A stretch of DNA of 64,000 nt from NCBI GenBank assembly GCA_963848135.1, contig CAWKCK010000005.1, positions 186,001-250,000 of the forward strand, in the 5' to 3' direction. The notes under the pieces were generated by a model. The model ran no database searches. It was not told where the DNA came from and saw only the letters and a list, made by a program, of their open reading frames with translations. Made by a program: the position numbers and the translations under genes. Shown piece by piece: positions 775-36,718 of this stretch. The DNA is from an uncultured delta proteobacterium. GTDB lineage: Bacteria > Desulfobacterota > Desulfobacteria > Desulfobacterales > SG8-13. Positions within the stretch are counted from its first letter, which is position 1, and each line of letters opens with the position of its first letter.

Positions 775-1329
775 GTGACACGGATGAATAAACGTATCGT
801 CCAGTTAGTTTTGGCATTGATTTTTCTCTTCAGCCAAACGGCCTTGGCCCCGGCCGAGGATCTCGACAACCGTTTCAATGAAATTGTCAGCCGACTTTAT
901 CTAAACCATAGAAGCCTGTCCGTCGTCTACAACAAATTGCATGACGCCGCGCTCGAAGCCGTCAACGGATCCGACCAGCAGCTCGCCGCCATACAAAAAA
1001 CCTATCTATTTGTTAGCGAAGCCAACCTCGTGTGCCTCTCCCAGTGGGAGCTGCTTTCAATTATCGGATACATCAAAGACAGCCATCTGGCCGACTATTA
1101 CACGCTGCGAGTCAAGGGCCTGGATCGGGCTACTTTCGAATCACGGGATCGGCTTGTTTCCCTGAAACTATATTCCGCTGACATCGAAAACCCGGAACCG
1201 CGCGAGCTGATCGAAGAGGCCGTCGGCCTCATCGAGGCCAACATCTACATGTTTGAACAATTGGCAGACATTCTCAAACCCCTGGCCAACCCACCCAATC
1301 CTTTCACTCGCAGCCTGAAAAACTCCTGA
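775..1329 (+). CDS. Hypothetical secreted alpha-helical protein
   Basis: 184-aa ORF with an N-terminal signal-peptide-like segment (MNKRIVQLVLALIFLFSQTALA). Confidence 0.75.
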   Translation: MTRMNKRIVQLVLALIFLFSQTALAPAEDLDNRFNEIVSRLYLNHRSLSVVYNKLHDAALEAVNGSDQQLAAIQKTYLFVSEANLVCLSQWELLSIIGYIKDSHLADYYTLRVKGLDRATFESRDRLVSLKLYSADIENPEPRELIEEAVGLIEANIYMFEQLADILKPLANPPNPFTRSLKNS

Positions 1330-1398
1330 CCCACACGTCAGCCGAGTATTACCATTCGTTTGAACGAAAAAGATCAACGCGAATGGGGAAATGTCAGG

Positions 1399-18956: not shown

Positions 18957-20858
18957 ATGGTGACTCGGAATGTGAAAATCAGATCCCATGTGATCCCGGT
19001 TCGGATTCTGTTGCCGGTCGTGATGACCGTTGCCCTGTTCGTGGGGACCATTTTTCTGCTCATCCTGCCGATTCTGGAGAATCGGATGATGACCGACAAA
19101 CGGGAGATGATCCGTGAATTGACCGAATCCGCCTGGAGCGTTCTCGATTCTTTCAGGGAAAAGGAAATCACGGGTCAGTTGCCGGGCAATCAGGCCCGTT
19201 TGCAGGCGATTGAGGCACTGCGGGCGCTGCGGTACGGACCTGAAAAAAAAGACTATTTCTGGGTCAACGACATGCACCCGTACTTGATCATGCATCCGTA
19301 TCGTCCCGACCTGGAAGGCAAAGACATTTCGGACTTTGCCGATCCCAACGGCAAAAAGCTCTTCGTTGAATTCGTCAAAGCGGTCGAGTCCGCGGGGGCC
19401 GGTTATGTGGATTATCAGTGGCAGTGGAAAGACGATCCCCTGCGGATTGTCCCCAAGATATCCTATGTCAAACGCTTCGAACCCTGGGACTGGATCGTTG
19501 GCACCGGCATCTATGTCGAAGACGTCCGCAACGAAATCGCAACCATTACCCGCCGGTTGACATATATTTGCCTGGCGATCCTGCTGTTGATCGTCGGCCT
19601 GTCCGGTTACACGGTCTGGCAAAGCACCGTCAGTGAACGCCGACGGCGCCTGGCCGACACGGCGTTGCGGGAAAGCGAGGAAAAATACAGGTTGCTGGCC
19701 GAAACCGCCCATGAATTCATTCTCGCATTCGAGCCGGACGGACGGATTTCGTATGCCAACAGCGCCTGGCTGGAGTCCAGCGGATTCGATCCGGTCGCCA
19801 TTCGAAAGATGAATATGGCGGATATTCTGCCGCTCGACGAACAGGCAGCATTCGAAGAACGCCTGGAAAAACTGCTGGCCGGAGACACGAACCCGCCCCT
19901 GTATGCATCGCATTTCCTGCTGAGAAACGGGTCCCGCATCCCGATCGAGGCCACCCTGGCCGCATTGCGGGAGGGTCCAGAGATACATCGAATTTTCATC
20001 ACGGCCCGGGATGTCACCGAGAAAAAGAAAGCCGAAGACCAGGCCCGAATGCACCGGGAGCAGCTGTATCAGGCCGATAAATTGGCGACACTGGGAACAC
20101 TGGTTTCCGGTGTCGCGCACGAGATCAACAACCCGGTCACTTTTGTCATGCTCAATGCGCCCATACTCAAGCAGGCCTGGCAGGCGGTGCTCCCCATCCT
20201 GGACGAACACCAGAAAAACCATGGCGATTTCAGAGTGGGTCGGATGGACTACTCCCGGCTGCGCGAGAGGCTTCCCTTGCTGGTGGGCAATATTATCGAA
20301 GGTGCCGAGCGGGTCAAAGCCATCGTGGGAGAACTCAAGGATTTTGCCCGCCAGGGTTCGGGTGATATGACGGCGGCCGTCGACATCAATCACACCGTCG
20401 CCAAGGCGGTCGGCCTCGTTGGCAACTTGATCAAAAAGAGCACCCACCATTTTGAAACAAATTATGCGGAGGCGCTTCCCCCCGTGACCGGCAACCCTCG
20501 CAAGATTGAACAGGTGGTGATCAATTTAATCGTCAATGCCTGTGAGTCGCTGCCCGATCCAGGGAGGACTGTGCAGATTGCGACGACCTACGATGTCGAT
20601 AGCGCCAGCGTCATTATCGACGTGCGCGACGAGGGCAGCGGTATGCCACCGAAAGTACTTCAACGAATCCGAGACCCCTTTTTCACCACCAAACGCGAAT
20701 CCGGCGGAACCGGACTCGGGCTGGCGATTGTCGACCGAATCGTCGACGATCACAAGGGCCAGTTGGCTTTCAGCTCGGTCGTGAACCAGGGAACAACGGT
20801 TCGGGTCAGCCTGCCGGCGACCAATCCATCTGTTAACGAGCAGGAAACGACATCATGA
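18957..20858 (+). CDS. Cache(2)-PAS sensor histidine kinase
   Basis: TM, DYFWVND...MHP...DPNGK Cache motif, TM, PAS, GVAHEINNP H-box, N/G1/F/G2 boxes (PFFTTK, GTGLGL). Confidence 0.95.
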   Translation: MVTRNVKIRSHVIPVRILLPVVMTVALFVGTIFLLILPILENRMMTDKREMIRELTESAWSVLDSFREKEITGQLPGNQARLQAIEALRALRYGPEKKDYFWVNDMHPYLIMHPYRPDLEGKDISDFADPNGKKLFVEFVKAVESAGAGYVDYQWQWKDDPLRIVPKISYVKRFEPWDWIVGTGIYVEDVRNEIATITRRLTYICLAILLLIVGLSGYTVWQSTVSERRRRLADTALRESEEKYRLLAETAHEFILAFEPDGRISYANSAWLESSGFDPVAIRKMNMADILPLDEQAAFEERLEKLLAGDTNPPLYASHFLLRNGSRIPIEATLAALREGPEIHRIFITARDVTEKKKAEDQARMHREQLYQADKLATLGTLVSGVAHEINNPVTFVMLNAPILKQAWQAVLPILDEHQKNHGDFRVGRMDYSRLRERLPLLVGNIIEGAERVKAIVGELKDFARQGSGDMTAAVDINHTVAKAVGLVGNLIKKSTHHFETNYAEALPPVTGNPRKIEQVVINLIVNACESLPDPGRTVQIATTYDVDSASVIIDVRDEGSGMPPKVLQRIRDPFFTTKRESGGTGLGLAIVDRIVDDHKGQLAFSSVVNQGTTVRVSLPATNPSVNEQETTS

Positions 20859-22279
20859 GCACTCCCCGGCCTACCCAACCGATCCTCATCGTGGATGATG
20901 AAGCCGCCATATTGCTGGCCATCGACACGGCCTTGCAAATGGCCGGGTTCAGCAACACCCTGACCTGTCAGGACAGCCGCCAGATCGTTGATCTCATGGC
21001 TAAACATAAGGTGGAAGTTCTCCTGCTCGATTTAACGATGCCCCACATCGACGGCCATAAATTGCTGGATCAGGTGAGCCGGGAATTCCCGGAAGTTCCA
21101 GTGGTGATCGTCACCGGGGCAGTGGATGTCGATACGGCAGTTTTATGCATGAAATCAGGTGCTTTTGACTATGTCATCAAGCCTGTTGAAGTCGACCGCC
21201 TGGTATCGGCCGTCAACCGGGCGGTATCGTTCAGGGAACTGAAACGAGAAAACTTTGCCCTGAAGCAGCACATTCTCAACGACACGCTGGAACGACCGGA
21301 TGCCTTCACCGACATCATCACCAACAATAAAAAGATGCTGTCCATTTTCCAGTATATCGAATCGATCGCTCAGACGTCACAGCCGGTGTTGATACGGGGT
21401 GAAACCGGGGTGGGCAAGGAACTCATTGCCCGGACCCTGCATACCCTCAGCGGTTTAAAAGGATCATTCGTCGCAATCAATGTCGCCGGACTCGATGACA
21501 ACGTTTTCTCCGACACCCTGTTCGGTCATCTTCGGGGCGCCTTCACCGGTGCAGAAAGGGACCGGAGGGGGCTCATCGAACAGGCTGCCGGTGGAACCCT
21601 GTTTCTCGACGAAATTGGCGATCTGAGTCCGGCCTCGCAGGTGAAACTGCTCCGATTACTGCAGGAGAGCGAGTACTTCCCCCTGGGACAGGATGTGGCC
21701 ACACTATCGGATGCCCGCATCGTGGCCTCGTCCAATGTCGATCTGTGGGAACGTCAAAAAGCCGGCCTGTTCCGCAAGGATTTGAATTACCGTCTGCGAA
21801 CCCATCGGATTTACATACCACCGCTGCGGGACCGGAAAGACGACCTCCCGCTCCTGCTCGACCATTTTCTAAGTAAAGCCGCCGCCGAGCTGAATCGCAA
21901 GAAGCCGACGGTACCCAAAGAACTTTTCACGCTGCTCCGAACCCACTCCTTTCCCGGAAATGTCCGCGAGTTGCAGACCCTTGTTTTCGACGCCGTCAGC
22001 CAGCACAAGGGCGGCATCCTCTCTTTGAATGTGTTCAAGGGCCACATCAAACTTCACCTGTCACGGGAAAATCCCGCACCTGAGGCCACCGGCGAAACCC
22101 CGGAGGAGCGACCGGAGCGAATCGGTTTCCCTGAGGACTTGCCGACCATCAAGCAGGCCACACGCCAACTGGTCTCCGAAGCCCTCAAACGGGCCGGGGG
22201 TAATCAGTCGATTGCCGCCGGTATGCTGGGAATTACGCAACAGGCCTTGAGCAAACGGATTAAAAAGATGAAAGCATAA
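20855..22279 (+). CDS. Sigma-54-dependent NtrC-family response regulator
   Basis: Receiver domain, GETGVGKE, GAFTGA, LFLDEIG, FPGNVREL and Fis-type HTH. ATGA overlap with the kinase. Confidence 0.96.
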   Translation: MSTPRPTQPILIVDDEAAILLAIDTALQMAGFSNTLTCQDSRQIVDLMAKHKVEVLLLDLTMPHIDGHKLLDQVSREFPEVPVVIVTGAVDVDTAVLCMKSGAFDYVIKPVEVDRLVSAVNRAVSFRELKRENFALKQHILNDTLERPDAFTDIITNNKKMLSIFQYIESIAQTSQPVLIRGETGVGKELIARTLHTLSGLKGSFVAINVAGLDDNVFSDTLFGHLRGAFTGAERDRRGLIEQAAGGTLFLDEIGDLSPASQVKLLRLLQESEYFPLGQDVATLSDARIVASSNVDLWERQKAGLFRKDLNYRLRTHRIYIPPLRDRKDDLPLLLDHFLSKAAAELNRKKPTVPKELFTLLRTHSFPGNVRELQTLVFDAVSQHKGGILSLNVFKGHIKLHLSRENPAPEATGETPEERPERIGFPEDLPTIKQATRQLVSEALKRAGGNQSIAAGMLGITQQALSKRIKKMKA

Positions 22280-22426
22280 TTGCTGCCGTGCGGCAATGCT
22301 GTGTGACCCCCTTTATTCTGATGGCCGATTTCCATCGGGCGCGGTGCTATTCGTGGTAAATCGTTATAAAACCACTATCCGCAGCGGTCTCAATCGGGAC
22401 CTATCCATTGAAACCGAAGAACACCC

Positions 22427-22525
22427 ACAACGCAGGTTGTATCCACAACCTGCGTTGTAATCGTATCGGATCACCGTTTCCGCCTTGTTCGGTCATACGC
22501 CCTCGCTGTTTACAACCAAAGTTGT
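22427..22525. promoter_or_regulatory. Three bEBP upstream activator sites ACAAC-N4-GTTGT
   Basis: Palindromic ACAAC/GTTGT half-site pairs at 22427-22440, 22445-22458 and 22512-22525. Confidence 0.8.
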
Positions 22526-22605
22526 AACCAAAAGAACACGCCATCCTCGCAATACAAATAGAAATATTGCAATATTTACAGATAGATAAATTAATGTCGA
22601 ATTAT

Positions 22606-22620
22606 TGGCATTACTTTTGC
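22606..22620 (+). promoter_or_regulatory. Sigma-54 -24/-12 promoter
   Basis: TGGCATTACTTTTGC, with canonical GG-N10-GC spacing. Confidence 0.85.
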
Positions 22621-22745
22621 TCTGCTAACAAGCGAAACAATATTCGATTCTTAGTAACGGTTCAAATAATGAATAAAATTCACTGAATATTGTTTATTAT
22701 TTATTCACCATTTAATTTTCATCACATTCAGGAGAGGGGTCACGC

Positions 22746-24158
22746 ATGGAGAAGATCAAGAACCGCGGCAAGCAGGTCGTTATGGCCGGATTGGGCATCA
22801 ATCTCGCCCTCGGAATCCTTTATACATGGAGCATATTCAAACTCGAGATCAAAGAATCGATTCTTGCCGGAGACGGCCGCTTCAATTGGGACATGGCCTC
22901 TCTGAACGATCCGTTCGCGGTGTGCTGCCTGATGTTCACACTCGGCATGCTGGCTGCCGGTCGACTCCAGGACAAAGTCAATCCGCGGTTGACGGCCATT
23001 TTCGGTGGCCTTCTCACCGGTGCCGGATTATTGGCCTCTTCCCAAAGCACGATTCTGGCCAACTGGATTCTCGGGTTCGGTGTCCTGACCGGTCTGGGTC
23101 TCGGGTTCGGTTATGCGTCTGCCACCCCTCCGGCCATCAAATGGTTTCCGGCGTCCAAAACTGGGATGATCGCCGGTATCGTGGTCGCCGGTTTTGGTCT
23201 GGCATCGGTCTATATTGCGCCGCTGGCAAATTTCCTGATGTCAAAGTACGGTATCAGCCAAGCCATGCTGATCTTCGGCGTGGCCTTTTTGGTCGTTGTC
23301 TGCGGACTGGCCATGCTGCTCGTCAATCCGCCCGAAGGTTACAAGCCTGAAGAAAAGGAACAGAAGAAGGTAACCACCCTGCGTTCGGCGACAAAGACAG
23401 AAGAGTTTCCCCCAAGCGAGGTCATCAAGACCAACACCTTCTACAAGCTCTGGTTCATGTTCTTCGTCGCTTCCGGTGCCGGATTGATCATCATCGGCAG
23501 CGTAGCCGGAATGGCCAAACAGAGCATGGGCCATTTGGCCTGGGTCGTGGTGGCCCTGCTCGCCATCGGCAATGCCAGCGGTCGCGTTGTGGCCGGTATC
23601 TTGTCCGATAAAATCGGTCGTACCCGTACCCTTTTCACCATGCTGACATTTCAGGGTCTGGTCATCACTTCATTGATATTTTTGGGTGAGGGCCAGGCCT
23701 TTCTACTGGTTCTGGCAGCAACATTGATCGGTTTCAATTACGGCACCAACCTGTCCCTGTTTCCCTCAGCCACCAAGGATTGTTTCGGTTTGAAAAACTT
23801 TGGCATGAACTATGGCCTGGTTTTTACGGCATGGGGTATTGGTGGATTCATATTTCCGCGGGTGTCTCAAATGATCGTCGCAAAGACAGGCTCCCCCGAA
23901 GCCGCTTACATCATGGCTGCCTTCCTGCTGTTTATCAGCGCCGGAATGACCTTTTTCACCAAAGCACCGAAAAGCCTGCGCTCGAAGGCCAAAATTATCA
24001 CCGCCCTGGAACCCGGCAAACTTTACAATGGGTATTTCATTTACCAACCCGGTTTTGTTTCCGAAACGGTTGATGAAGTCGCCAAAGACGAAGCCGCCGC
24101 CTCTAAAACGATCATCAAGCGGCTGCCGAATTTCTTTCTCAACCGTAAAACCGGATAA
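22746..24158 (+). CDS. OFA family MFS transporter (oxalate/formate antiporter-like)
   Basis: LGILYTWSIF, GRLQDK, KWFP, GIVVAGFG and NFGMNYGLVFTAWG; 12 TM. Confidence 0.92.
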   Translation: MEKIKNRGKQVVMAGLGINLALGILYTWSIFKLEIKESILAGDGRFNWDMASLNDPFAVCCLMFTLGMLAAGRLQDKVNPRLTAIFGGLLTGAGLLASSQSTILANWILGFGVLTGLGLGFGYASATPPAIKWFPASKTGMIAGIVVAGFGLASVYIAPLANFLMSKYGISQAMLIFGVAFLVVVCGLAMLLVNPPEGYKPEEKEQKKVTTLRSATKTEEFPPSEVIKTNTFYKLWFMFFVASGAGLIIIGSVAGMAKQSMGHLAWVVVALLAIGNASGRVVAGILSDKIGRTRTLFTMLTFQGLVITSLIFLGEGQAFLLVLAATLIGFNYGTNLSLFPSATKDCFGLKNFGMNYGLVFTAWGIGGFIFPRVSQMIVAKTGSPEAAYIMAAFLLFISAGMTFFTKAPKSLRSKAKIITALEPGKLYNGYFIYQPGFVSETVDEVAKDEAAASKTIIKRLPNFFLNRKTG

Positions 24159-28858: not shown

Positions 28859-28999
28859 TTAGTGTTCCGAGTCTTCGCGATCAAACGTTGCGTCGGTGTT
28901 CTCGGAACCGTCATCGAAATCACTCCAAGGGATTGATTTCTTGAACTCTTTCTCCACCAAATCTTCCCAATTGTAGCCGGGTCTGTATTCTTCGTGCAC
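28859..28999 (-). CDS. Small acidic hypothetical protein (46 aa), below the ORF-track cutoff
   Basis: Manual translation: GTG start, MHEEYRPGYNWEDLVEKEFKKSIPWSDFDDGSENTDATFDREDSEH*; AGAAAGG upstream. Confidence 0.5.
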   Translation of the reverse strand: MHEEYRPGYNWEDLVEKEFKKSIPWSDFDDGSENTDATFDREDSEH

Positions 29000-29059: not shown

Positions 29060-29099
29060 AAAGTATAACTCCCCGGGTGGCATACCACAGGGAGTTATA
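29060..29099 (-). terminator. Intrinsic terminator-like hairpin
   Basis: TATAACTCCC...GGGAGTTATA stem followed by CTTTT on the minus strand. Confidence 0.6.
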
Positions 29100-29477
29100 A
29101 AAGATGATGATATAAAGGATGTTTCAGGTAACGCTCGTGTTAATTAAAAATGCCTAAGTTAACTTACTTGAATTCTATAAGATTTGAAAGATGACTACCC
29201 TACCTAAAAAATCTCCTCGTCGTTTTATGTTAATAAGTAATGTTAACTCGCCAACAAAATTTTTTCCGGATTTGTGTGATCGTATCCCTGAAACATCCCT
29301 TATACGCCTGGTTGAGGGCCCATCCAATTTACCCCCGGTTTTGCCGTAAATCCTGTGTGTCGGCATGCCCGCTTGGTCCATCGGCAGCAGCGCAAGAGTC
29401 GAAAGAGAAGGAGGAGGAAGACGACCGCGTTTGGGTCCCGGATAACCTAAATTTCTATCCGCATCCCGGCATACCGA
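29060..29477 (-). ncRNA. Putative sigma-54-dependent structured sRNA 1 (5' domain about 29360-29477; 3' end uncertain)
   Basis: Lies downstream of a -24/-12 promoter. The 5' end UCGGUAUGCC pairs with GGCAUGCCGA, and a GUCG/CGAC hairpin loop carries UCUUCCUCCUCCUUCUCUUU. No convincing CDS. Confidence 0.6.
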
Positions 29478-29486
29478 GAATAGCTG

Positions 29487-29614
29487 ATACAAGTTTTATG
29501 CCAGCACGCCGAGATGTAAAATTTTCTTTTTTTTCGAATACTTAAAAATCCCAACCCCGGTCTTTCCATACATTTTTTGACAAAATACAGTCAAATTCCT
29601 GACAAAATACGTCA
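29487..29614 (-). promoter_or_regulatory. Sigma-54-type promoter with IHF-like site and paired TGAC-N7/8-GTCA UAS
   Basis: TGGCATAAAACTTGTAT (29503-29487); TGAC-N8-GTCA at 29578-29593 and TGAC-N7-GTCA at 29600-29614; AT-rich IHF-like TTTCGAATACTTA at 29532-29544. Confidence 0.7.
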
Positions 29615-29643
29615 GCCGGTCTCTTTACTGCCACCCGGTCGGA

Positions 29644-31431
29644 TCAAACCCACTGCAATGCTTCTGAAAGGCACGTTTCCGTCAGAATCCGCCGTTTGCC
29701 CAGGCGCAGGTACACAGCGCGACCGACCGTGGCCAGGCGACGCAGCTCCGTAATAAGCACGCGCAGCCGGTCATACGACCACATATCGAGACATCGCTGC
29801 CTCGCGAGACCGCCCCGGTGACAATGCGGTGGAACGGGTGGCGCATCGCATTTTGGCGTCTCAAACCGGCCGACGACCTGCCCGCCACTGATAACGAGCC
29901 CGATAATCGTCTTTTGCCGTGAGCCCCACGTCAGAGACGACTCACTCAGAAGTGCCAACCATCGGGCCCGGCGGAGCATCCAGGCGCATTGACCCAGTAA
30001 GGATTCTATCCGACCGGCCACATCTTCGGCCGTCCACAGGTCATCGGCAGCACCGGTCTGTGTTTCTTCTTTGCTGTCGTCTATCGATTCCTTCCCGTTT
30101 TCAAGCGCCGCTCTAGTCAGGCGCCGCTTCATGTCACCGATGGCAAGTAACGTTCGCCAGATCGGCTTGGATTGAATGGCTGTCGCATGACGATCCATGA
30201 ACAGTCCGATTCCGCCCAGCAGGCAGGCTTTATCCGGGCAAAAACGCTCCGGCAAGTCGAGCAGCACTGCCGAATCCTTGACTGCGGGTTCAGAAAACGA
30301 TCCTGACGGTTCCGCCAGGATATTACCGATGGCATGCAAGGCTTTGAAAAGGCCCCGATGCGGCACGGGTCCGAACCTATGCTGCCGATCCGGTACATGC
30401 GAATAATTCTTGAAGTCGGGGGACATGAACCAAGTGTGGCGGTTGTCGGCCTGCAGAGCAATGTTGTACGGCGGACGGAATCTCTTGATTTCTTCGGTTT
30501 CCAAAAGGGCGGCCTCCAGGGCCGATCCGGTGGGTGTTATTTTTACGTCGGCCGCCTGGGTAAGCATCTCCAGTGATTTCTCCGAATGACAACCGGTTTT
30601 ACGAAAATGGCTGTTTACCCGCTGGCGGAGATGCGTTGCCTTACCGATATAAAGTAAATCTCCATTGGATCTGACGAAACGGTACACCCCGGGTTCTTCC
30701 GGCAGGTTACGCCGAATGGTAGAGGGCATTGGATATCGGCGAACAGCGGTCGGTACCGGTGTCCGAGCCAGCCAGTTTTTCAATTCCGAAAGGGTGTGAA
30801 TTCCGAGAGACCGATTGAGGAGAGTGACCAGCTGACGCCAGATAACGGCTGTGGCGATGGCATGGGCGGCGGAACGCCGACGAGGTGTAACCGTGTGCCC
30901 AAAGTATCCGGCCAAGGCTCGCAGGCCTTTACGGGGAAGTTCGGGCAGCAGGCGCCTGGCAATTTCATGACTGCAGATGATATCGAACGGAAATATTGAT
31001 GCAGCACCCTGCAATTCGTAGAGATGCCGCAAAAAAGGCTCTTCAAAGCGTGAAAAATGAATGACCAGCGGGCACCGCTGCAATTGGTTGGCGCCGACGA
31101 CAGAACGGGCCGTTTCGTTCAACCGGCGCCACACGGCGTCAGTCGACCACCCATCAATTATATCGGCTTGCGTTAATCCGGTCAGGCGCACGACAGGCGG
31201 TGGAATCGTACCACCTGAAGGCAATCGAACCCGGCAGCTAAAAACCGACGACCAATCGGATACGCCGGCAATCACGGCCGATGTCCGGATCCATCCGATT
31301 TCAATCAGACTGGCGCATTCCGGACGGCTCCCGGTGGTCTGGCAATCGAGGATCAATACCTCGAGAGTCTTAAGCGGCGAATGGATCCCCATGCCTGCAG
31401 GAACGGTATTTGGGGTCACGAGTGAAGGCAC
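29644..31431 (-). CDS. DEDDh (DnaQ-like) exonuclease - GIY-YIG (UvrC/Cho-like) endonuclease fusion
   Basis: ILDCQTTG...IEIG and LTGL N-terminal fold; PGVYRF...LYIGKATHLRQRV...ALLETEEIK...PPYN. Confidence 0.85.
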   Translation of the reverse strand: MPSLVTPNTVPAGMGIHSPLKTLEVLILDCQTTGSRPECASLIEIGWIRTSAVIAGVSDWSSVFSCRVRLPSGGTIPPPVVRLTGLTQADIIDGWSTDAVWRRLNETARSVVGANQLQRCPLVIHFSRFEEPFLRHLYELQGAASIFPFDIICSHEIARRLLPELPRKGLRALAGYFGHTVTPRRRSAAHAIATAVIWRQLVTLLNRSLGIHTLSELKNWLARTPVPTAVRRYPMPSTIRRNLPEEPGVYRFVRSNGDLLYIGKATHLRQRVNSHFRKTGCHSEKSLEMLTQAADVKITPTGSALEAALLETEEIKRFRPPYNIALQADNRHTWFMSPDFKNYSHVPDRQHRFGPVPHRGLFKALHAIGNILAEPSGSFSEPAVKDSAVLLDLPERFCPDKACLLGGIGLFMDRHATAIQSKPIWRTLLAIGDMKRRLTRAALENGKESIDDSKEETQTGAADDLWTAEDVAGRIESLLGQCAWMLRRARWLALLSESSLTWGSRQKTIIGLVISGGQVVGRFETPKCDAPPVPPHCHRGGLARQRCLDMWSYDRLRVLITELRRLATVGRAVYLRLGKRRILTETCLSEALQWV

Positions 31432-31532
31432 CTGTTAATTTAGGTACAACGGGATCCGAAAACGACAGGAAATTCCGGGAGTATTCTTGATGGCTTCGAC
31501 CGAAAATCACCGACGGTGAGGCGCTCGTCGAT

Positions 31533-32441
31533 TTATTCGATTTTCAACTTTCTGGCGAAAGAGGCCGCTTCCAGACCTGCCACGCAGCCTTCACCCACGG
31601 CTTTGGCCATCTGCCACGGTGGTCCGCAGATGTCACCGGCGGCGAAGACGCCCGGAACACTGGTGTTCTGTTTTTTGTCGGTATGAATATATTTGGCATC
31701 ATCATCCAAACGGATTCCAAATTCAGCAGCAAGTTCCATAACCCCCTTGGCTCCCAGTTCGATGAAAACACCACTGACAGGAATTGGCGTGCCATCTTTC
31801 AACACGATGCCGGTCACTTCCTTGCCTCCGTCTATTCTCTCGACGGCCGCGCCCTGATGAATGATGATATCGCTTTGCTCGATTTCTTCCCTCAGGGAAT
31901 CAATCACCTGTAACTGTTTGCAGACCAGGTGAACCTTACGGGCGGTGCTCGTCAGCGTCACGGCGCCGCTGGCCGCCGCACTCTCACCCCCGATAACCGC
32001 CACGTCCTGGTCACGGAAAAAATTGGCATCGCACTCGACGCAGTAACTGACCCCCTTGCCGAGAAAATCCGTTTCTCCGGGAACACCCAGCTTGTTGCGG
32101 GTGGAGCCTGTGGCGATAATCAGGCTTTTACAGCGGATGCTTTGCCGGCTTTCGGTCGTCAGGCTGAACAATTGGCCGTCCGGGGTGACCTTCAAAATAT
32201 CTTCGTCGACGATTTGCGCACCGAATTGAACGGCCTGCTCCCGGCCAATGCGCAGCATATCCTCCCCGGCCACGCTGAAGAGGCAGCAGAAATTTTCGAC
32301 ATGGGCGTGAAAAAGACTGCTCTTGACCTGCTTACCGAACATGACAACCGAGGCCTTTCGACGGGCGGCGTGAATGGCGGCCTGTAGTCCGGCCGGTCCT
32401 GTACCGAGGATAACCACATCAATGATTTCTTTTGGCTGCAT
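31533..32441 (-). CDS. Thioredoxin reductase-like flavoprotein
   Basis: ILGTGPAG, IIATG, GKGVSYCVECD and FAAGD...AVGEG. Confidence 0.9.
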   Translation of the reverse strand: MQPKEIIDVVILGTGPAGLQAAIHAARRKASVVMFGKQVKSSLFHAHVENFCCLFSVAGEDMLRIGREQAVQFGAQIVDEDILKVTPDGQLFSLTTESRQSIRCKSLIIATGSTRNKLGVPGETDFLGKGVSYCVECDANFFRDQDVAVIGGESAAASGAVTLTSTARKVHLVCKQLQVIDSLREEIEQSDIIIHQGAAVERIDGGKEVTGIVLKDGTPIPVSGVFIELGAKGVMELAAEFGIRLDDDAKYIHTDKKQNTSVPGVFAAGDICGPPWQMAKAVGEGCVAGLEAASFARKLKIE

Positions 32442-32991
32442 TTGTTATCTCCCAACCCGGCGGACATAATATTAAACATCAGTTTTCAGAGGCCAATCCG
32501 TTCCAGGCGATGCTATTGCCCTATTACGGCAATTTATTATTGATAAGCGGTATGATCGCTTCTCTTTGTCTCGAAGGACAAAATTTTCAAATATGCGATA
32601 ATCGACGGTCCGGTAACGACCGCGGATCCGTTCTCTGACATCATCTTGCACCGGACCGACAGGGCTGTCAAGCGTTGTTGCCCAGATGCTCGATTTCAAC
32701 CCGAAAGCAGAGCGCACCCAGTGATCGGCCCCGCGCAAAGATCACTATATTCTTGAATTTGAACAATTTTCGAGGCCATGACGTGAACATGACGCTTTCA
32801 GTTCCTCTGTGCTCTTGAATTCGGTGTTTTCAGCATTACACTATTGACTATGGTTAATTGCGTGAGGCCGACATGTTTGACCGGTGCACCAAAGCTGATC
32901 AAACCGACCTCACCTGAACACGTTGGCGCCATGAAGTATTCCGACCGAACGCAGCGTGTCGATATATACCACCGAAAGGAGATGAAGCCGT

Positions 32992-33294
32992 ATGGCCAAA
33001 GATAAATTCAAAGTAACACCGGATGTTTGTACATATCTGAGCGAAGACGAACACACCCTGAACATTGAAGTTTCCGTGCCGGGTGTCAACAAAGGCGATA
33101 TCCGCCTGCAACTGCTCGATGACAGTTTTAACCTGACAGCCCCGGGAAAGGATGTCGAATACGTCACCGCTTCAGCGTTCTGCTGCCCGGTTAAGGCCAC
33201 TGAGGCCAAGGCAAAATATGAAAACGGCTGCCTTAAGATCTCGGTGCCTTTCAAAAATCCGTTCGAGAACGCAGTGCAAGTTACAATCGGTTGA
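32992..33294 (+). CDS. Small heat-shock protein (Hsp20/alpha-crystallin)
   Basis: VPGVNKGDI and AKAKYENGCLKISVP; AAGGAG RBS. Confidence 0.88.
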   Translation: MAKDKFKVTPDVCTYLSEDEHTLNIEVSVPGVNKGDIRLQLLDDSFNLTAPGKDVEYVTASAFCCPVKATEAKAKYENGCLKISVPFKNPFENAVQVTIG

Positions 33295-33374
33295 CGGCAC
33301 CCAACACCGGGAAATTAATAATCACGACCCCAAAGACAATGCCTCACAGGAAGTCGTCGGGAACCAGAATACAG

Positions 33375-33402
33375 AAAGCAGGGTCTTTCAAGACCCTGCT
33401 TT
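33375..33402. terminator. Bidirectional terminator-like hairpin
   Basis: AAAGCAGGGTCTT-TC-AAGACCCTGCTTT perfect inverted repeat between convergent genes. Confidence 0.7.
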
Positions 33403-33627
33403 GCATTTGCACCCCAATTCATGCAACCGCATGAGCACGGGTTGCATCTTCCCACATTCCATTCAGATTCAAAGCGCCCGGTGGAAGGTCTTTGGAATCG
33501 TCACTTTCAATCGGATATGGCGCCTCTAACCCAGACATTTCATGTCAAGTATCTAAAATTAAATTAATTTACTCATAGTGGCGAAAAAGATTTTATGAAA
33601 TATTCGGGCTAATAAACCAACACCCGG

Positions 33628-34212
33628 TCAAGCGCTGCCACCTTTGAGACCAAGTGCATCGGCAACGTCGCGCATACCCATGATCGTGTCCGTTATGAGC
33701 TCGCTCACTTCAACGCCCAGCATCTGAGCCCCTTTTTCAATAATTGTCCGATCGACACCGGCGGCAAACCGCTTGTCCTTCCATTTTTTCTTGACTGACT
33801 TGGCCTTGAGGTCCATCAGGCTCCGTGATGGCCGGACAAGGGCGGTCGTGACGACCAGGCCGGTCAGTTCATCTATGGCAAAAAGGACTTTTTCCATTTC
33901 AGTTTGTGGTTCCACATCCGTACATATACCCCAACCGTGACTCACCACCGCACGGATATATTCTTCGGGCCAGTTTCGGTCCTTAAGAATTTCTTCGGTC
34001 TTACGGCAGTGCTGGTCGGGATACATTTCGTAATCCAAATCATGGATCAGGCCAACAATCCCCCATTTTTCTTCATCCTCATCGCGTTTGTGCGCCATGT
34101 ATCGCATGACGCCCTCAACGGCTAAGGCATGTTTGATCAGGCTCTCATTCCGGTTGTACGTCTTCAGCAACGTTAAGGCATCGTCACGTGTCGGCACATT
34201 CGGTTCATTCAT
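33628..34212 (-). CDS. HD(IG) domain metal-dependent phosphohydrolase
   Basis: KHALAV, IHDLDY, SH and AIDELTG; AAGGAGG RBS. Confidence 0.9.
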   Translation of the reverse strand: MNEPNVPTRDDALTLLKTYNRNESLIKHALAVEGVMRYMAHKRDEDEEKWGIVGLIHDLDYEMYPDQHCRKTEEILKDRNWPEEYIRAVVSHGWGICTDVEPQTEMEKVLFAIDELTGLVVTTALVRPSRSLMDLKAKSVKKKWKDKRFAAGVDRTIIEKGAQMLGVEVSELITDTIMGMRDVADALGLKGGSA

Positions 34213-34275
34213 ATGTTACCTCCTTAAAGTCAGAAACTTCTCGATCTTGTGCCCGGCGGAAGCGTCCTGACGGCA

Positions 34276-34845
34276 TTACCGCCTATCCCCCTCCCCGGGC
34301 AGAAACGGCCACAGCTCTTTCAATCCCATGGATCCGGCGGACACGATTATTTTGGGTGAGTATCGGCCGTACTGAATAATTTTTGCCATTTTATCATCGC
34401 AGCCCGCCGCAGAAAGACGGCCGCTCACCCAAAGGACCCGCGGGAACAAAAGCGCGTTGATGAAAGGCAGATCCTCGTCTCGACAAAAACTGCTCCCACG
34501 GCCATCGTCGATAATGATAAAATCGGCCCATCCGTCTTTTAAACATTCGATGGTCTCCCGTTCTCCCGGGTCAAGAAGAAAGAGACGTTTGTCTTTCGAT
34601 AACTGCCACGCCGCGCGCCTGCCGCTGGAGACGATAGTGACTGCCGCTCGGCGGGCCACATCTCTGAAGAACGCCGCCCCGGGGTATCCACTGTGCGTAA
34701 CCTCCCAAAGGACCGTCGCCGTCATCAGCACACGGTAGGTCTGAACCAGCCGTCCGAACAATCCGGCTTTGAATAGTATAATGGCTGAAGAGGCGTCAAC
34801 AATCGCCCGTTTTCGATCTATGCCTGTATTCTGAAGAGTGTCCAT
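34276..34845 (-). CDS. PIN-domain protein (DUF3368-like)
   Basis: IVDASSAI, V..EV, LDPGERETI and IIIDD acidic PIN motif. Confidence 0.75.
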   Translation of the reverse strand: MDTLQNTGIDRKRAIVDASSAIILFKAGLFGRLVQTYRVLMTATVLWEVTHSGYPGAAFFRDVARRAAVTIVSSGRRAAWQLSKDKRLFLLDPGERETIECLKDGWADFIIIDDGRGSSFCRDEDLPFINALLFPRVLWVSGRLSAAGCDDKMAKIIQYGRYSPKIIVSAGSMGLKELWPFLPGEGDRR

Positions 34846-35025
34846 GCCATATGGGCAATAAAGTAATCATTGCTGCACTATTTTATCAAGAACCTAATTT
34901 GAGCGATTGTCGAGATTGCCGCAGATACAAGGAAGATGTCGTTCCGTCCCGCCGCCGGCGGGATCAGCTATGCGGGACGGCATATGACGCCGTGGATGCG
35001 GCAACCCTCCAGAGGTGGATAAAGA

Positions 35026-35129
35026 TCGGCAATCCCAATGGGTTTCAAATTTTAAAATCAAAGGATGATAGAATTCATTAAATACAAAGCCGTTCACCCT
35101 CCATTAATAATTTGAAACGCTCACTTTAG
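35026..35129. mobile_element. MITE-like repeat, family A
   Basis: Reverse complement aligns end-to-end with 16386-16488, including the shared non-TIR end GGGATTGCCGA. Confidence 0.8.
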
Positions 35130-35224
35130 GAAGAAGTTGTTGCATAAGTGCGGGGGGACCCCGATTGAATCACGCTCAGTAAATTTCGAGCATATAGGCA
35201 CGGAATAGAGAAACAGGGGATGGG

Positions 35225-35353
35225 AGAAAAAATTGGCCCCTGGAGTTCGCGGGACTCCAGGGGCACTTAAAGGAGGAGTCACTCCGAGGTTCACCAGGCC
35301 CCGGAGCGTGTCTGATGAAGTTGCCAACACCGGATTGGGTGGTAGCAGCTTGA
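35225..35353 (-). ncRNA. Putative sigma-54-dependent sRNA 2 (about 128 nt, three hairpins)
   Basis: Two stem-loops, then single-stranded ACUCCUCCUUU, then an 11-bp GC-rich terminator (35236-35264) and a U6 tract. Confidence 0.75.
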
Positions 35354-35362
35354 ATTCAGAGT

Positions 35363-35494
35363 ATACAAGTTCCATGCCAATATCATCCAAAATTTAAACT
35401 TTCAACATGCTGATATTATTTGCTTTTATTAAAGGTCGGCAAAATAGCTCCCAAATTTGCCAAAACACGTCAACACTCCTGACCAAATTTGTCA
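35363..35494 (-). promoter_or_regulatory. Sigma-54-type promoter with IHF site and paired TGAC-N7-GTCA UAS
   Basis: TGGCATGGAACTTGTAT (35379-35363); IHF consensus match TATCAGCATGTTG (35415-35403); TGCC-N7-GTCA at 35458-35472 and TGAC-N7-GTCA at 35480-35494. Confidence 0.72.
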
Positions 35495-35740
35495 CCGGCG
35501 GATCTAAAATAGCCATCCGGCGGTATCCGAATATAGATGTTTGGACGCCTCCGCGTGGCCCGTGGATCGATTGTGTTTTTTCCTTTTAATTCATCCCGCG
35601 ATTATGTAAAAATAAAAGGGTCACAATGCCCTTCGCCTGAATATTTTGATGAAAAAACCGGATGAGATCGATCGTCGGTCCCAAATAACTTTGCCTCAGG
35701 CGTATGGAAGGGATCGAGGGAGGGGGAAAACGTCGCTAAA

Positions 35741-36718
35741 ATGAACATGGCAAGTGCGATTGTAATGGCCGGCTACAATAACAAGTGGGCCGTCAAGAAA
35801 TATGCCAAAATCATCGCCGAACACTATGGTGAGACATTTATCGAAACCGGATACAAGCCGTTGAGGGAATTCGAGGTCATCGAGAACGGTCAATCGGTCA
35901 AGAAACCACTGATTCAATTCACCCTGGAACAGCTCTTCCAATGCAATCGCATCGGGGACATCACCATCGTCGGTCATCAAATGCTGCTGGAGCAGCGTCT
36001 TAACGATTTTCTCACCCAGTCTGGCCGGCCATATCGAATTATCAACCAGAACTCCCGTATCCCAGCTGATGTGATCAAGGCGTTTCACATTCGGCCCCGC
36101 AAGGTTAAACACAACTCCATCGCTGGAAATATGATCAAGGGCTACGCGGCCAGCACCGCTGGAGAAGAGAAACGGCACGCTTTGTTCGTGGCATCGGACT
36201 CACCATTGACCACCAGCTCTTTTATGGATTACTTCCTCGATCTGGCCGATAACTTTGCAACGGGGAATACGATTATTCTCCCCGCGGTGTTAATCGACGG
36301 TGCCACGGACAATTTTGGGCGATACCCGATGAAACTCATTAACGACTCGGATTTCCAACTGTCGGATAAAACCGATGCCCACGGCCGCCAGGGATTCCGC
36401 CTCTCTTCCCTGATGTATGCCAACCCATACGGATTCGACATCAACACCGCCAATACCGCTTACAATCTGCGCAAATGCCTGAACCCCAAAGTGCAGCTAA
36501 AATTGTTCAGGATCACGCGCCATCTGGGATATAAAAATTTCTACTCCAAGCATTTTATCCAGAAGGACCTGAGCTTGAAAGAAGTCGAAAATATTACCTC
36601 AGCTTTTTTCGACGGTCGTCTGAAGATCATTCCGGTTCAGGAGGTGGTTTCGAGCTACGATTATGACGGTACGGACGATGAATACCGTCGGTTGGCAGAA
36701 ATTCTTCGAAAAGGCTGA
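35741..36718 (+). CDS. Nucleotidyltransferase-like (MobA/NTP_transferase, GT-A fold) hypothetical protein
   Basis: AIVMAG start, K-PL...GKKPLIQFTLEQL...ITIVG, ASDSPL and C-terminal DYD. Confidence 0.65.
   Translation: MNMASAIVMAGYNNKWAVKKYAKIIAEHYGETFIETGYKPLREFEVIENGQSVKKPLIQFTLEQLFQCNRIGDITIVGHQMLLEQRLNDFLTQSGRPYRIINQNSRIPADVIKAFHIRPRKVKHNSIAGNMIKGYAASTAGEEKRHALFVASDSPLTTSSFMDYFLDLADNFATGNTIILPAVLIDGATDNFGRYPMKLINDSDFQLSDKTDAHGRQGFRLSSLMYANPYGFDINTANTAYNLRKCLNPKVQLKLFRITRHLGYKNFYSKHFIQKDLSLKEVENITSAFFDGRLKIIPVQEVVSSYDYDGTDDEYRRLAEILRKG

What the first reader, a model, noticed from the sequence alone, without database searches (positions are those of the whole stretch)
29060..35494. Two intergenic loci share one sigma-54/enhancer architecture: candidate co-regulated sRNA family
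Seen: minus-strand elements TGGCATAAAACTTGTAT (29503-29487) and TGGCATGGAACTTGTAT (35379-35363) are 15/17 identical. Both have -24/-12 spacing and the same unusual GT at -12. Each has two TGAC-N7/8-GTCA palindromes (one reads TGCC) starting exactly 22 bp apart (29578/29600; 35458/35480), 75 and 79 bp upstream of the -24 element. An IHF-like site lies between (a perfect WATCARN4TTR match at 35403-35415). Neither promoter is followed by a credible CDS. Both lead into hairpin-rich sequence containing CUCCUCCUU, complementary to the AGGAGG Shine-Dalgarno. Established analogies are Vibrio LuxO/sigma-54-driven Qrr sRNAs, myxobacterial Pxr and alphaproteobacterial CCUCCUCCC 'cuckoo' RNAs. Inference: one bEBP, probably encoded elsewhere since the local NtrC faces different ACAAC-N4-GTTGT sites, drives several anti-SD sRNAs. 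I know of no description of this in sulfate reducers.
Basis: partly seen in the sequence, partly recalled or inferred. Interest (0 to 1): 0.9.

Follow-up and report, generated by a model that had tools for sequence, protein, structure and literature searches.

The report
PilR-type sigma-54 non-coding RNA genes
Two stretches between genes carry the same switch-and-promoter cassette as this bacterium's pilus gene but make RNAs rather than proteins, which suggests that the regulator of pilus production also controls a set of regulatory RNAs.

Summary
They are far beyond chance and conserved in relatives.

One enhancer-binding protein encoded elsewhere is the likely driver. The box consensus (TGACA-N5-TGTCA) is the motif conserved between a response-regulator gene and a sigma-54 pilin gene across the order. 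That regulator's single ortholog lies on contig C2, directly upstream of a box, a canonical sigma-54 promoter and a type IV pilin gene. It is PilR-like by gene context only.

The RNAs are not one family. Locus 2 is a ~127-nt sRNA with a strong terminator and a single-stranded CUCCUCCUUU resembling the 16S 3' tail; it was found in one relative only. Locus 1 is a ~415-nt structured RNA conserved across the genus, and its CU motif is not conserved. It lacks a canonical terminator and precedes a conserved 46-aa ORF. A third, widespread RNA family lies on another contig.

None of the three matches Rfam. Sigma-54-dependent non-coding RNAs in a sulfate reducer are already published. No expression data could be obtained.

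The parts
29600..29614 (-). Locus 1 distal enhancer box TGACGTATTTTGTCA (one mismatch to TGACA-N5-TGTCA)
   Evidence: Orthologous boxes were found in 8 of 9 relatives' loci by a strict regex.
29578..29593 (-). Locus 1 proximal enhancer box TGACTGTATTTTGTCA (N8 variant). It starts 22 bp from the distal box.
   Evidence: AATTTTGTCA is conserved in all genus orthologues.
29487..29503 (-). Locus 1 sigma-54-type promoter TGGCATAAAACTTGTAT, with GG at -25/-24 and GT instead of GC at -13/-12. The predicted start is near 29477.
   Evidence: TGGCAT-N5-TTGT is present in 9 of 9 relatives' loci. The transcription start is inferred and not mapped.
29060..29477 (-). Locus 1 structured RNA (class 1, ~415 nt). 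It has a 5' helix P1, a CU-rich loop, a 22-bp long-range helix and a 3' hairpin.
   Evidence: Fold -120 kcal/mol, z -2.1. In the 10-sequence alignment 59 pairs are predicted, 9 of them with double compensatory changes. No Rfam match.
29401..29421 (-). CU tract UCUUCCUCCUCCUUCUCUUUC (CUCCUCCUU at 29416-29408), predicted as a 20-nt hairpin loop
   Evidence: The motif is not conserved in orthologues.
29285..29307 (-). 5' arm of the long-range helix (GCGUAUAAGGGAUGUUUCAGGGA)
   Evidence: Both arms are nearly invariant across the genus and in genus g2.
29110..29130 (-). 3' arm of the long-range helix (UACCUGAAACAUCCUUUAUAU)
29065..29098 (-). Conserved GC-rich 3' hairpin followed by ACUUUUAG. It is terminator-like but has a poor U-tract.
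   Evidence: The terminator scan did not list it.
28859..28999 (-). Conserved 46-aa acidic ORF downstream of the class-1 RNA; it may be co-transcribed
   Evidence: Found in 14 of 20 family genomes, always next to the RNA. The wider search gave 19 clusters, all 'hypothetical' or unnamed. No Pfam match.
35480..35494 (-). Locus 2 distal enhancer box TGACAAATTTGGTCA
   Evidence: Conserved in G006.
35458..35472 (-). Locus 2 proximal enhancer box TGACGTGTTTTGGCA. It starts 22 bp from the distal box.
   Evidence: Conserved in G006, including the GGCA half.
35403..35415 (-). IHF-consensus match TATCAGCATGTTG between enhancer and promoter
   Evidence: The G006 orthologue keeps a consensus match, TATCAACGAATTA.
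35363..35379 (-). Locus 2 sigma-54-type promoter TGGCATGGAACTTGTAT. The predicted start is near 35353.
   Evidence: The G006 orthologue reads TGGCATGAAAATTGA.
35227..35353 (-). Locus 2 sRNA (class 2, ~127 nt) with three hairpins
   Evidence: Fold -52.5 kcal/mol, z -4.4, 0 of 200 shuffles as good. Identity to G006 is 75% from enhancer to terminator, against 49% upstream and 29% downstream. No Rfam match.
35266..35280 (-). Single-stranded GACUCCUCCUUUAAG. It resembles the genome's own 16S 3' tail CACCUCCUUUCUAAGG.
   Evidence: Unpaired in both the MFE and the centroid structure. Identical in G006. The 16S tail was read.
35227..35264 (-). Intrinsic terminator: 11-bp stem with 8 GC pairs, then UUUUUU
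   Evidence: (best-ranked terminator in the region)

Best explanation
Both loci are RNA genes transcribed from sigma-54 promoters. Each promoter is switched on from a pair of TGACA-N5-TGTCA enhancer boxes two helical turns apart and about 75 bp upstream. Locus 2 also has an IHF bend site between enhancer and promoter.

The activator is most likely the NtrC-family response regulator encoded at G000:C2:484633-486030 (-). I call it PilR-like by gene context. In this genome and across the order, its gene sits directly upstream of the same box, a sigma-54 promoter and the type IV pilin gene.

The regulon in this genome would then be the pilin gene plus three non-coding loci: window locus 1, window locus 2, and a third at C18:525156-525424.

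Locus 2 makes a ~127-nt terminated sRNA. Its exposed CUCCUCCUUU mimics the 16S 3' tail and would pair with Shine-Dalgarno sequences of target mRNAs without Hfq. Locus 1 makes a ~415-nt structured RNA. This may be a stand-alone RNA, the leader of the 46-aa ORF behind it, or both.

Shown by sequence and comparison: the architecture, its conservation, the non-coding nature, and the box-regulator-pilin linkage. Inferred: transcription itself, binding by this regulator, and the anti-SD mechanism (about 0.35 on its own).
For: Architecture beyond chance.

Conservation:
- Locus 2 has an orthologue in G006. Conservation is bounded by the enhancer and the terminator: 75% inside against 49% upstream and 29% downstream.
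- Locus 1 was found in 10 of 12 other genus genomes searched, with the promoter in 9 of 9 and the box in 8 of 9 fetched loci.
- The pattern TTTTGKCA-N65-90-TGGCAT-N5-TTG hits 20 of 20 family genomes with 0 reversed-control hits.
- The tandem-box pattern hits 96 of 301 order genomes, against 11 control hits in 8 genomes.

Regulator:
- All four map to one G000 gene at 66-75% identity, against at most 46% for the next paralogue.
- Downstream of that gene lie TGACAATATTTGTCA, then TGGCATGCGCATTGC, then a pilin with an N_methyl domain.
- Of 30 orthologue loci, 18 have a pilin within 1.5 kb downstream, and 16 of those 18 have the box in between.
- PilR lying directly upstream of the RpoN-dependent pilA gene is documented for Geobacter (PMC2725144, passage).

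Other points:
- One rpoN gene is present.
- No sigma-54-like promoter lies on the opposite strand of either intergenic region.
- RNA 2 folds with z -4.4 and has a strong terminator.
- RNA 1 helix P1 shows two adjacent compensatory pairs.
- The third locus and its relatives carry the same boxes and promoter type.
- Published precedent: sigma-54/EBP-controlled ncRNAs in D. vulgaris (PMC4641369, PMC3333781).
Against: - The -12 dinucleotide is GT, not the consensus GC. In G006 it is GA.
- Genome-wide, TGGCAY-N5-TTGT is not much commoner than TTGA or TTGG: 45 against 53 and 44, with TTGC at 82 and reversed controls at 14-31.
- The window boxes each deviate from the consensus by one or two positions or by one inserted base.
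- In G000 the pilin gene has a single box, not a tandem pair.
- 'PilR' rests on synteny alone. No NCBIfam equivalog cut-off was reached, and no histidine kinase gene is adjacent.
- G050 (95% complete) has boxes and a class-3 RNA but no orthologue at E<=1e-150. Among G020-G079, by my own tally of the rows of those calls, 16 of 18 RNA-positive genomes have the orthologue against 26 of 42 RNA-negative ones. This association is weak and the genomes are kin.
- Locus 1 has no canonical terminator, and its CU motif is not conserved.
- A perfect IHF consensus occurs in only 5 of 50 distinct enhancer-promoter spacers.
- SD complementarity cannot single out targets: 35 start regions carry a 10-nt match.
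- Locus 2 rests on two sequences only.
Confidence: 0.62

Rival explanations
1. Locus 1 is not a trans-acting sRNA. It is the long structured 5' leader of a sigma-54 operon that encodes the 46-aa protein. The conserved 3' hairpin would act as an attenuator or a processing and stability element.
For: - RNA and ORF co-occur. 13 of 15 other genus genomes have the ORF, always adjacent to the RNA, and G003 and G007 lack both.
- The hairpin has only 3-4 U after it and was not called as a terminator.
- Third-position changes in the ORF indicate a real gene (by eye).
- The ORF is kept at 46 aa in 12 of 19 homologue clusters.
Against: - In genus g2 the homologous RNA, with the same long-range helix, ends in a good terminator, and no match to this ORF was found in G016 or G019.
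- A leader of ~415 nt with a 22-bp invariant helix is unusual for a 46-aa gene.
- This reading is not exclusive of a dual role.
Confidence: 0.35
2. A different enhancer-binding protein, one of the other ~50 in the genome, binds the boxes at the RNA genes. This could be a paralogue with a similar helix-turn-helix. The pilin-linked regulator would then control only the pilin gene.
For: - The genome has 53 Sigma54_activat matches, about 52 genes.
- The next paralogue is 42-46% identical.
- RNA-gene cassettes differ from pilin cassettes in having tandem imperfect boxes, a shorter spacer, and T or A instead of C at -12.
- G050 has the RNA but no close orthologue.
Against: - The box consensus is identical at pilin genes and RNA genes, for example TGACAAAAATTGTCA in both.
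- Tandem boxes also precede pilin genes in L051, L063 and L101.
- No other bEBP gene was found next to any boxed locus among those fetched.
Confidence: 0.15
3. The RNAs act as protein sponges rather than by base pairing, in the manner of CsrB/RsmZ (recalled) or CrcZ (recalled). Repeated short motifs would titrate an RNA-binding protein.
For: - Class-1 RNAs carry 7-12 GGA triplets against ~6 expected.
- In genus g2 the interior holds three GGAACG..GGAACGGUAA-like repeats.
- At ~415 nt, the size is close to CrcZ (recalled).
Against: - No CsrA gene and no Hfq gene were found in a 98.65% complete genome.
- GGA enrichment is under two-fold.
- The repeats have decayed in G000 itself.
- RNA 2 has no repeats.
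Confidence: 0.08
4. The cassettes are duplicated remnants of pilin-type control regions with no functional product. The downstream hairpins would be incidental.
For: The two control regions resemble each other beyond the boxes, as a duplication would produce.
Against: - Conservation runs through the RNA and stops at the terminator.
- Compensatory changes occur in helices.
- Class 1 is kept across a genus and a second genus, and class 3 is found in 48 of 151 order genomes.
Confidence: 0.03

Closest known systems
PilS/PilR - sigma-54 - pilA circuit (Pseudomonas, Geobacter, Myxococcus)
   Same: An NtrC-family response regulator gene lies directly upstream of a sigma-54-dependent type IV pilin gene, with upstream activator boxes (PMC2725144 passage; PMC6058289 passages).
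   Different: Here the same box also precedes non-coding RNA genes. The papers I read in passages (PMC6058289, PMC2725144) mention no sRNA targets. The box here is a palindrome, TGACA-N5-TGTCA, whereas PMC6058289 describes TGT-N11-AGA plus GTCT elements for P. aeruginosa. No adjacent kinase gene is present in G000.
LuxO - sigma-54 - Qrr sRNAs (Vibrio)
   Same: One NtrC-type response regulator and sigma-54 drive several small RNAs. The class-3 family here is likewise multi-copy, with up to 10 copies per genome.
   Different: There is no sequence or structure match to any Rfam family. No Hfq gene was found. The regulator is not a LuxO equivalog (386 bits against a cut-off of 800). The three RNAs here are unrelated to each other.
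Desulfovibrio vulgaris sigma-54/EBP-controlled ncRNAs (DVU0679-Dv_sRNA2, DVU0653, DVU1419, DVU2359)
   Same: These are enhancer-binding proteins of a sulfate reducer whose targets are non-coding RNAs behind sigma-54 promoters (PMC4641369 abstract and table passages; PMC3333781 passages).
   Different: In those cases the ncRNA mostly lies next to its regulator gene. Here the RNA genes are on other contigs than the candidate regulator. None of those regulators is the pilin regulator; the pili regulator DVU2114 controls Flp/Tad-type pili. The sequences were not compared, because the supplements were not read.
GlrR(QseF) - sigma-54 - GlmY/GlmZ and CbrB - sigma-54 - CrcZ/CrcY (recalled, not from a call)
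   Same: Several RNA genes share one enhancer/sigma-54/IHF architecture. CrcZ has a size similar to the locus-1 RNA.
   Different: GlmY/GlmZ are homologous to each other, as are CrcZ/CrcY. The RNAs here are not. No Rfam match. Different regulators and motifs.
CCUCCUCCC 'cuckoo' RNAs of alphaproteobacteria and C-rich RoxS/RsaE-type sRNAs (recalled)
   Same: An exposed pyrimidine-rich anti-SD-like motif, in an organism where no Hfq gene was found.
   Different: No Rfam match at the gathering threshold. The only sub-threshold RsaE hit is 15.2 bits against 79, at E 5.8, and lies outside the sRNA body. Here there is a single motif per RNA, placed just 5' of the terminator.

Membership tests
sigma-54 (RpoN) -24/-12 promoter | GG at -24 and the exact spacing to the -12 element | tested here: met
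   TGGCAT-N5-TTG is present at both loci and conserved in orthologues.
sigma-54 (RpoN) -24/-12 promoter | GC at -13/-12 | tested here: not met
   Both loci read GT, and G006 reads GA at locus 2. The deviation is systematic: 0 of 43 RNA-gene cassettes have C at -12, against 16 of 18 pilin cassettes.
sigma-54 (RpoN) -24/-12 promoter | An rpoN gene in the genome and an upstream activator site 70-150 bp away | tested here: met
   One Sigma54_DBD gene is present. Tandem boxes lie 74 and 78 nt upstream.
sigma-54 (RpoN) -24/-12 promoter | A transcript start about 12 nt downstream that depends on rpoN | not testable with these tools
   No RNA run was listed.
PilR regulon | The target carries the same box as the regulator-pilA intergenic region | tested here: met
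   The consensus TGACA-N5-TGTCA lies between the regulator orthologue and the pilin gene in 16 of 18 loci that have a pilin downstream. The window boxes differ from it by 1-2 positions or one inserted base.
PilR regulon | The regulator is a PilR orthologue, with a PilS partner and proven control of pilA | tested here: inconclusive
   Synteny with the pilin gene is met. No equivalog model was reached. No adjacent kinase gene. No comparison with a characterised PilR sequence was possible.
PilR regulon | Physical binding and activation | not testable with these tools
   This needs EMSA or DAP-seq and mutants.
Qrr sRNAs | Match to the curated covariance model, Hfq dependence, a LuxO activator | tested here: not met
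   No Rfam match. No Hfq gene found. The LuxO model scored below its cut-off.
CsrB/Rsm-type CsrA sponge | Many GGA motifs in loops, and a CsrA gene | tested here: not met
   GGA occurs 7-12 times against ~6 expected. No CsrA gene found.
Stand-alone terminated sRNA | An intrinsic terminator directly after the structured body | tested here: met
   Locus 2: 11-bp stem plus U6. For locus 1 this feature is not met: the hairpin has a poor U-tract and was not called.
Any curated RNA family (Rfam 15) | A score at or above the gathering threshold | tested here: not met
   There were 0 matches in the window. Only chance-level hits appeared at E<=10. There were 0 hits at E<=1 for L007, L029, L024 and L039.

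The most novel reading that the evidence does not exclude
The pilin regulator of Desulfobacterales runs a post-transcriptional arm. Besides the pilin gene, it switches on several unrelated sigma-54-dependent RNAs: a widespread multi-copy family, a ~415-nt structured RNA, and a 16S-tail mimic. These RNA genes are set apart from the pilin promoter by a systematic T or A at -12. Pilus or surface sensing would then be coupled to translation control, without Hfq or CsrA.
Probability: 0.3. Interest if true: 0.75.

Novelty: new member of a known kind. Interest (0 to 1): 0.55.

Why it matters
Control of small RNAs by an enhancer-binding protein and sigma-54 is an established theme: Qrr, plus GlmY/Z and CrcZ (the last three recalled), and the D. 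vulgaris ncRNAs. The principle is therefore not new.

Three things would be new.
- Three RNA families absent from Rfam. One is found in 48 of 151 genomes of the order, in up to 10 copies per genome.
- Their attachment to the regulator of type IV pilin expression. This points to an unrecognised RNA output of a pilus-linked two-component system. My two literature searches returned no title or abstract reporting a PilR-activated sRNA; the full texts were not read.
- A clean promoter rule: C at -12 for pilin genes, T or A for RNA genes. This offers a natural test bed for how the -12 base tunes sigma-54 promoters.

All of this is computational and concerns mostly uncultured genomes.

Tried and rejected
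- Rfam at the gathering threshold on the window, at E<=10 on both loci, and at E<=1 on four related loci: nothing credible.
- RNA-seq: no RNA holder was listed for window:28800-35700.
- The local NtrC as regulator: rejected, because it has its own enhancer, promoter and MFS target.
- CsrA-sponge idea: weak GGA enrichment and no CsrA gene.
- Hfq-dependent, Qrr-like mode: no Hfq gene.
- Coding potential of the long ORFs that overlap the RNAs (105 aa at 29175-29492, 101 aa at 29240-29545, 89 aa at 35121-35390): no Pfam match, indels between orthologues, and no frame with a synonymous excess.
- Target prediction by SD complementarity: 35 start regions carry a 10-nt match, which is too unspecific to use.
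- Scan of genome contigs with a conserved 24-nt stretch of the locus-2 RNA: only the G006-like record was found, so class 2 stays at two sequences.
- Homology between locus-1 and locus-2 RNAs: none beyond the control region. Model R1 of the third family does not hit the window.
- RNAalifold on the 42-sequence class-3 alignment supported only 9 pairs, so I make no detailed structure claim for that family.
- Two further box+promoter candidates in G000 (C3:35626 and C17:89542) and one at C2:441116 have imperfect boxes or odd spacing and were not pursued.
- Four scripts stopped on regex errors. They were rerun or replaced by counting from printed output.

Full report
THE OBSERVATION

Locus 1, on the minus strand, has two boxes: TGACGTATTTTGTCA at 29614-29600 and TGACTGTATTTTGTCA at 29593-29578. 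After a 74-nt A/T-rich spacer comes TGGCATAAAACTTGTAT at 29503-29487.

Locus 2 has TGACAAATTTGGTCA at 35494-35480 and TGACGTGTTTTGGCA at 35472-35458. After a 78-nt spacer that holds a perfect IHF consensus (35415-35403) comes TGGCATGGAACTTGTAT at 35379-35363.

The promoter-like pattern is expected 0.09 times in the window and occurs twice. In the 6.03-Mb genome only these two loci have two boxes 22 bp apart.

No sigma-54-like element faces the other way in either intergenic region. The enhancers therefore do not serve the divergent gene at 35741-36718. At locus 1 the upstream gene (29644-31431, RNase_T plus GIY-YIG) is co-directional and ends 30 nt before the boxes.

WHAT IS TRANSCRIBED

Locus 2. 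From the predicted start near 35353 the sequence folds into three hairpins: -52.5 kcal/mol, z -4.4, and 0 of 200 shuffles as good. The last hairpin is the best terminator in the region, with an 11-bp stem and U6. GACUCCUCCUUUAAG lies unpaired between hairpin 2 and the terminator. The genome's own 16S rRNA ends ...CACCUCCUUUCUAAGG, so the motif mimics the anti-Shine-Dalgarno tail.

Only one other genome among 60 relatives has this RNA, G006 at 77% identity; a scan of the species collection found the same record only. In the pairwise alignment, identity is 75% from enhancer to terminator, 49% upstream and 29% downstream. There is a 2-nt indel, and no reading frame shows purifying selection. By eye on the alignment, stem changes are G-U/A-U or U-A/U-G switches while loops vary freely. 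The boxes, the IHF match and the CU motif are all kept.

Locus 1. This locus is different. A DNA search found it in 10 of 12 other genus genomes. All 9 fetched loci have TGGCAT-N5-TTGT, and 8 of 9 have the box by a strict regex. The RNA is about 415 nt long. Its parts are as follows.
- A 5' helix P1 with two adjacent compensatory pairs.
- A 22-bp long-range helix (29307-29285 with 29130-29110) that is almost invariant on both arms and encloses a variable interior.
- A conserved GC-rich hairpin at 29098-29065.

The hairpin has only 3-4 U after it and was not scored as a terminator. Sixty-six nt further on begins a 46-aa acidic ORF (28999-28859). This ORF is present in 14 of 20 family genomes and is always adjacent to the RNA. 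It is missing, along with the RNA, from G003 and G007. It belongs to 19 clusters named 'hypothetical' or not named at all.

In the orthologues it reads CUUCCUUUUCC, CUCCUUCUC, UCCAUCUC or GCCACAUC. It is therefore a lineage feature, not a family signature.

In a second genus (L039, L040) the same long-range helix closes an interior of GGAACG..GGAACGGUAA-like repeats. That RNA ends in a good terminator, and no match to the small ORF was found in the two genomes of that genus.

The two RNAs share nothing recognisable beyond their control regions.

A third locus. The pattern 'box end - 65 to 90 nt - TGGCAT-N5-TTG' hits 20 of 20 family genomes with no reversed-control hit. It revealed a third cassette in G000 at C18:525318-525424. 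Behind it lies a ~224-nt terminated RNA with no ORF.

A covariance model of its conserved core finds the family in 48 of 151 genomes of the order, in up to 10 copies, some in tandem. Of the 30 best loci, 23 have a sigma-54-like element upstream, 20 have a box-like site, and 16 have both in the right order. Many members carry CCUCC just 5' of the terminator; 11 of 30 have CCUCC or CUCCU within 220 nt 3' of the core. The G000, G006 and G007 copies lack it.

RNAalifold supported only 9 pairs on 42 sequences, so I claim conserved sequence (CGUGCAUCUU, AACGGCA) rather than a structure. None of the three RNA types matches Rfam.

THE ACTIVATOR

The tandem-box pattern hits 96 of 301 genomes of the order, against 11 reversed-control hits in 8 genomes. 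Many GC-rich hits are chance matches in coding sequence. The real class reads TGACAAAAATTGTCA or close to it.

All four proteins have one clear counterpart in G000: C2:484633-486030, at 66-75% identity against at most 46% for any other of the ~52 enhancer-binding proteins.

Directly downstream of that gene lie three elements in order: TGACAATATTTGTCA, a canonical TGGCATGCGCATTGC, and a 132-aa pilin (N_methyl domain; best NCBIfam hit is the N-terminus of myxobacterial PilA).

The orthologue is single-copy in 43 of 61 order genomes at E<=1e-150. Of 30 fetched loci, 18 have a pilin motif within 1.5 kb downstream, and 16 of those 18 have the box (at most one mismatch) in between. Five loci had under 300 nt of downstream sequence.

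This is the pilR-pilA arrangement reported for Geobacter (PMC2725144, passage). It is also the standard comparative argument for assigning a box to a regulator (method passages of PMC4641369). I therefore read the boxes as the sites of a PilR-like regulator. This remains an inference: no equivalog model was reached, no kinase gene is adjacent, and no binding was tested.

AN UNEXPLAINED REGULARITY

I tabulated the distinct box-plus-promoter cassettes in all fetched loci.
- Pilin promoters have C at -12 in 16 of 18 cases.
- RNA-gene promoters have C in 0 of 43 cases (T in 34, A in 9).

The genomes are kin, so this is not a statistic. Still, it spans many families. Genome-wide, TTGC is the commonest variant: 82 against 44-53 for the others.

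MECHANISM

The most likely reading has three steps.
1. The phosphorylated PilR-like regulator binds the box pairs on one face of the helix.
2. With DNA bending (IHF at locus 2), it contacts sigma-54 holoenzyme at the -24/-12 element.
3. It thereby switches on the RNAs together with the pilin gene.

For locus 2, the exposed and conserved 16S-tail mimic makes occlusion of Shine-Dalgarno sequences the best guess. No Hfq gene and no CsrA gene were found in a 98.65% complete genome. This excludes a Qrr-like, Hfq-dependent mode and argues against a CsrA sponge. SD complementarity alone cannot name targets.

For locus 1 I cannot decide between a stand-alone RNA, a leader of the 46-aa ORF, or both.

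COMPARISON AND NOVELTY

The principle is known: one enhancer-binding protein and sigma-54 driving regulatory RNAs. Examples are LuxO-Qrr, plus GlrR-GlmY/Z and CbrB-CrcZ/Y (both recalled). The D. vulgaris sigma-54 regulome lists 4 non-coding RNAs under DVU0653, DVU0679, DVU1419 and DVU2359 (PMC4641369, abstract and table passages). DVU0679 targets Dv_sRNA2 (PMC3333781, passage).

What I did not find in print is a pilin regulator with sRNA targets. Two searches listed no such title or abstract. PMC6058289 contains no occurrence of 'sRNA', 'small RNA' or 'noncoding'. Krushkal et al. 2010 on Geobacter PilR sites is not held, and the supplements of the Desulfovibrio papers were not read, so priority cannot be excluded.

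VERDICT

This is a real, conserved regulatory feature and a new member of a known kind. There is no expression evidence: no RNA run was listed.

Noticed in passing
window 18957-24158 (+): A Cache/PAS histidine kinase (18957-20858) and an NtrC-type regulator (20855-22279) are followed by ACAAC..GTTGT inverted repeats (about 22427-22520), a canonical sigma-54 promoter TGGCATTACTTTTGC (22606-22620) and an MFS transporter gene (22746-24158). This is a self-contained two-component/sigma-54 unit, unrelated to the RNA loci.
   Followed up: partly
window 28859-28999 (-): A conserved 46-aa acidic ORF (start VHEEYRPGYNWED in G000, MHEEY in relatives) lies behind the locus-1 RNA. It forms a narrow family of 19 clusters, all 'hypothetical' or unnamed, one of them from a Desulfobacterales MAG, and has no Pfam domain.
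   Followed up: partly
G000:C18:525156-525424 (L007 about 1268-1640, minus strand): A third boxed sigma-54 cassette with a ~224-nt terminated RNA. Its core family occurs in 48 of 151 genomes of the order, in up to 10 copies per genome and sometimes in tandem. It has invariant CGUGCAUCUU and AACGGCA and is absent from Rfam.
   Followed up: partly
all fetched cassettes: The -12 base is C in 16 of 18 pilin promoters and in 0 of 43 RNA-gene promoters of the same regulon. This is unexplained.
   Followed up: partly
window 29110-29307 (-); L039, L040: The 22-bp long-range helix of the locus-1 RNA is nearly invariant on both arms, whereas its interior is replaced between lineages: AT-rich in G000/G006 and GGAACG-type repeats in genus g2. 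The helix could be an RNase III site; this was not tested.
   Followed up: no
G000:C17:1238645-1238710 and G000:C18:441089-441154: Two weak hits of the class-3 model with identical scores (38.7 bits, 66 nt). They are probably a repeated hairpin and were not examined.
   Followed up: no
G000:C2:483676-484074 region (L081 3676-4074, minus strand): The type IV pilin gene has a single perfect box 126 nt upstream of its canonical promoter. The regulator gene upstream has signal peptidase I, not a kinase, as its neighbour.
   Followed up: partly
window 29578-29640 versus 35458-35520 (-): Similarity between the two control regions extends upstream of the boxes (CCGGRTGGC ... CCG..G.TGAC). This suggests that the whole enhancer-promoter cassette was duplicated.
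   Followed up: no
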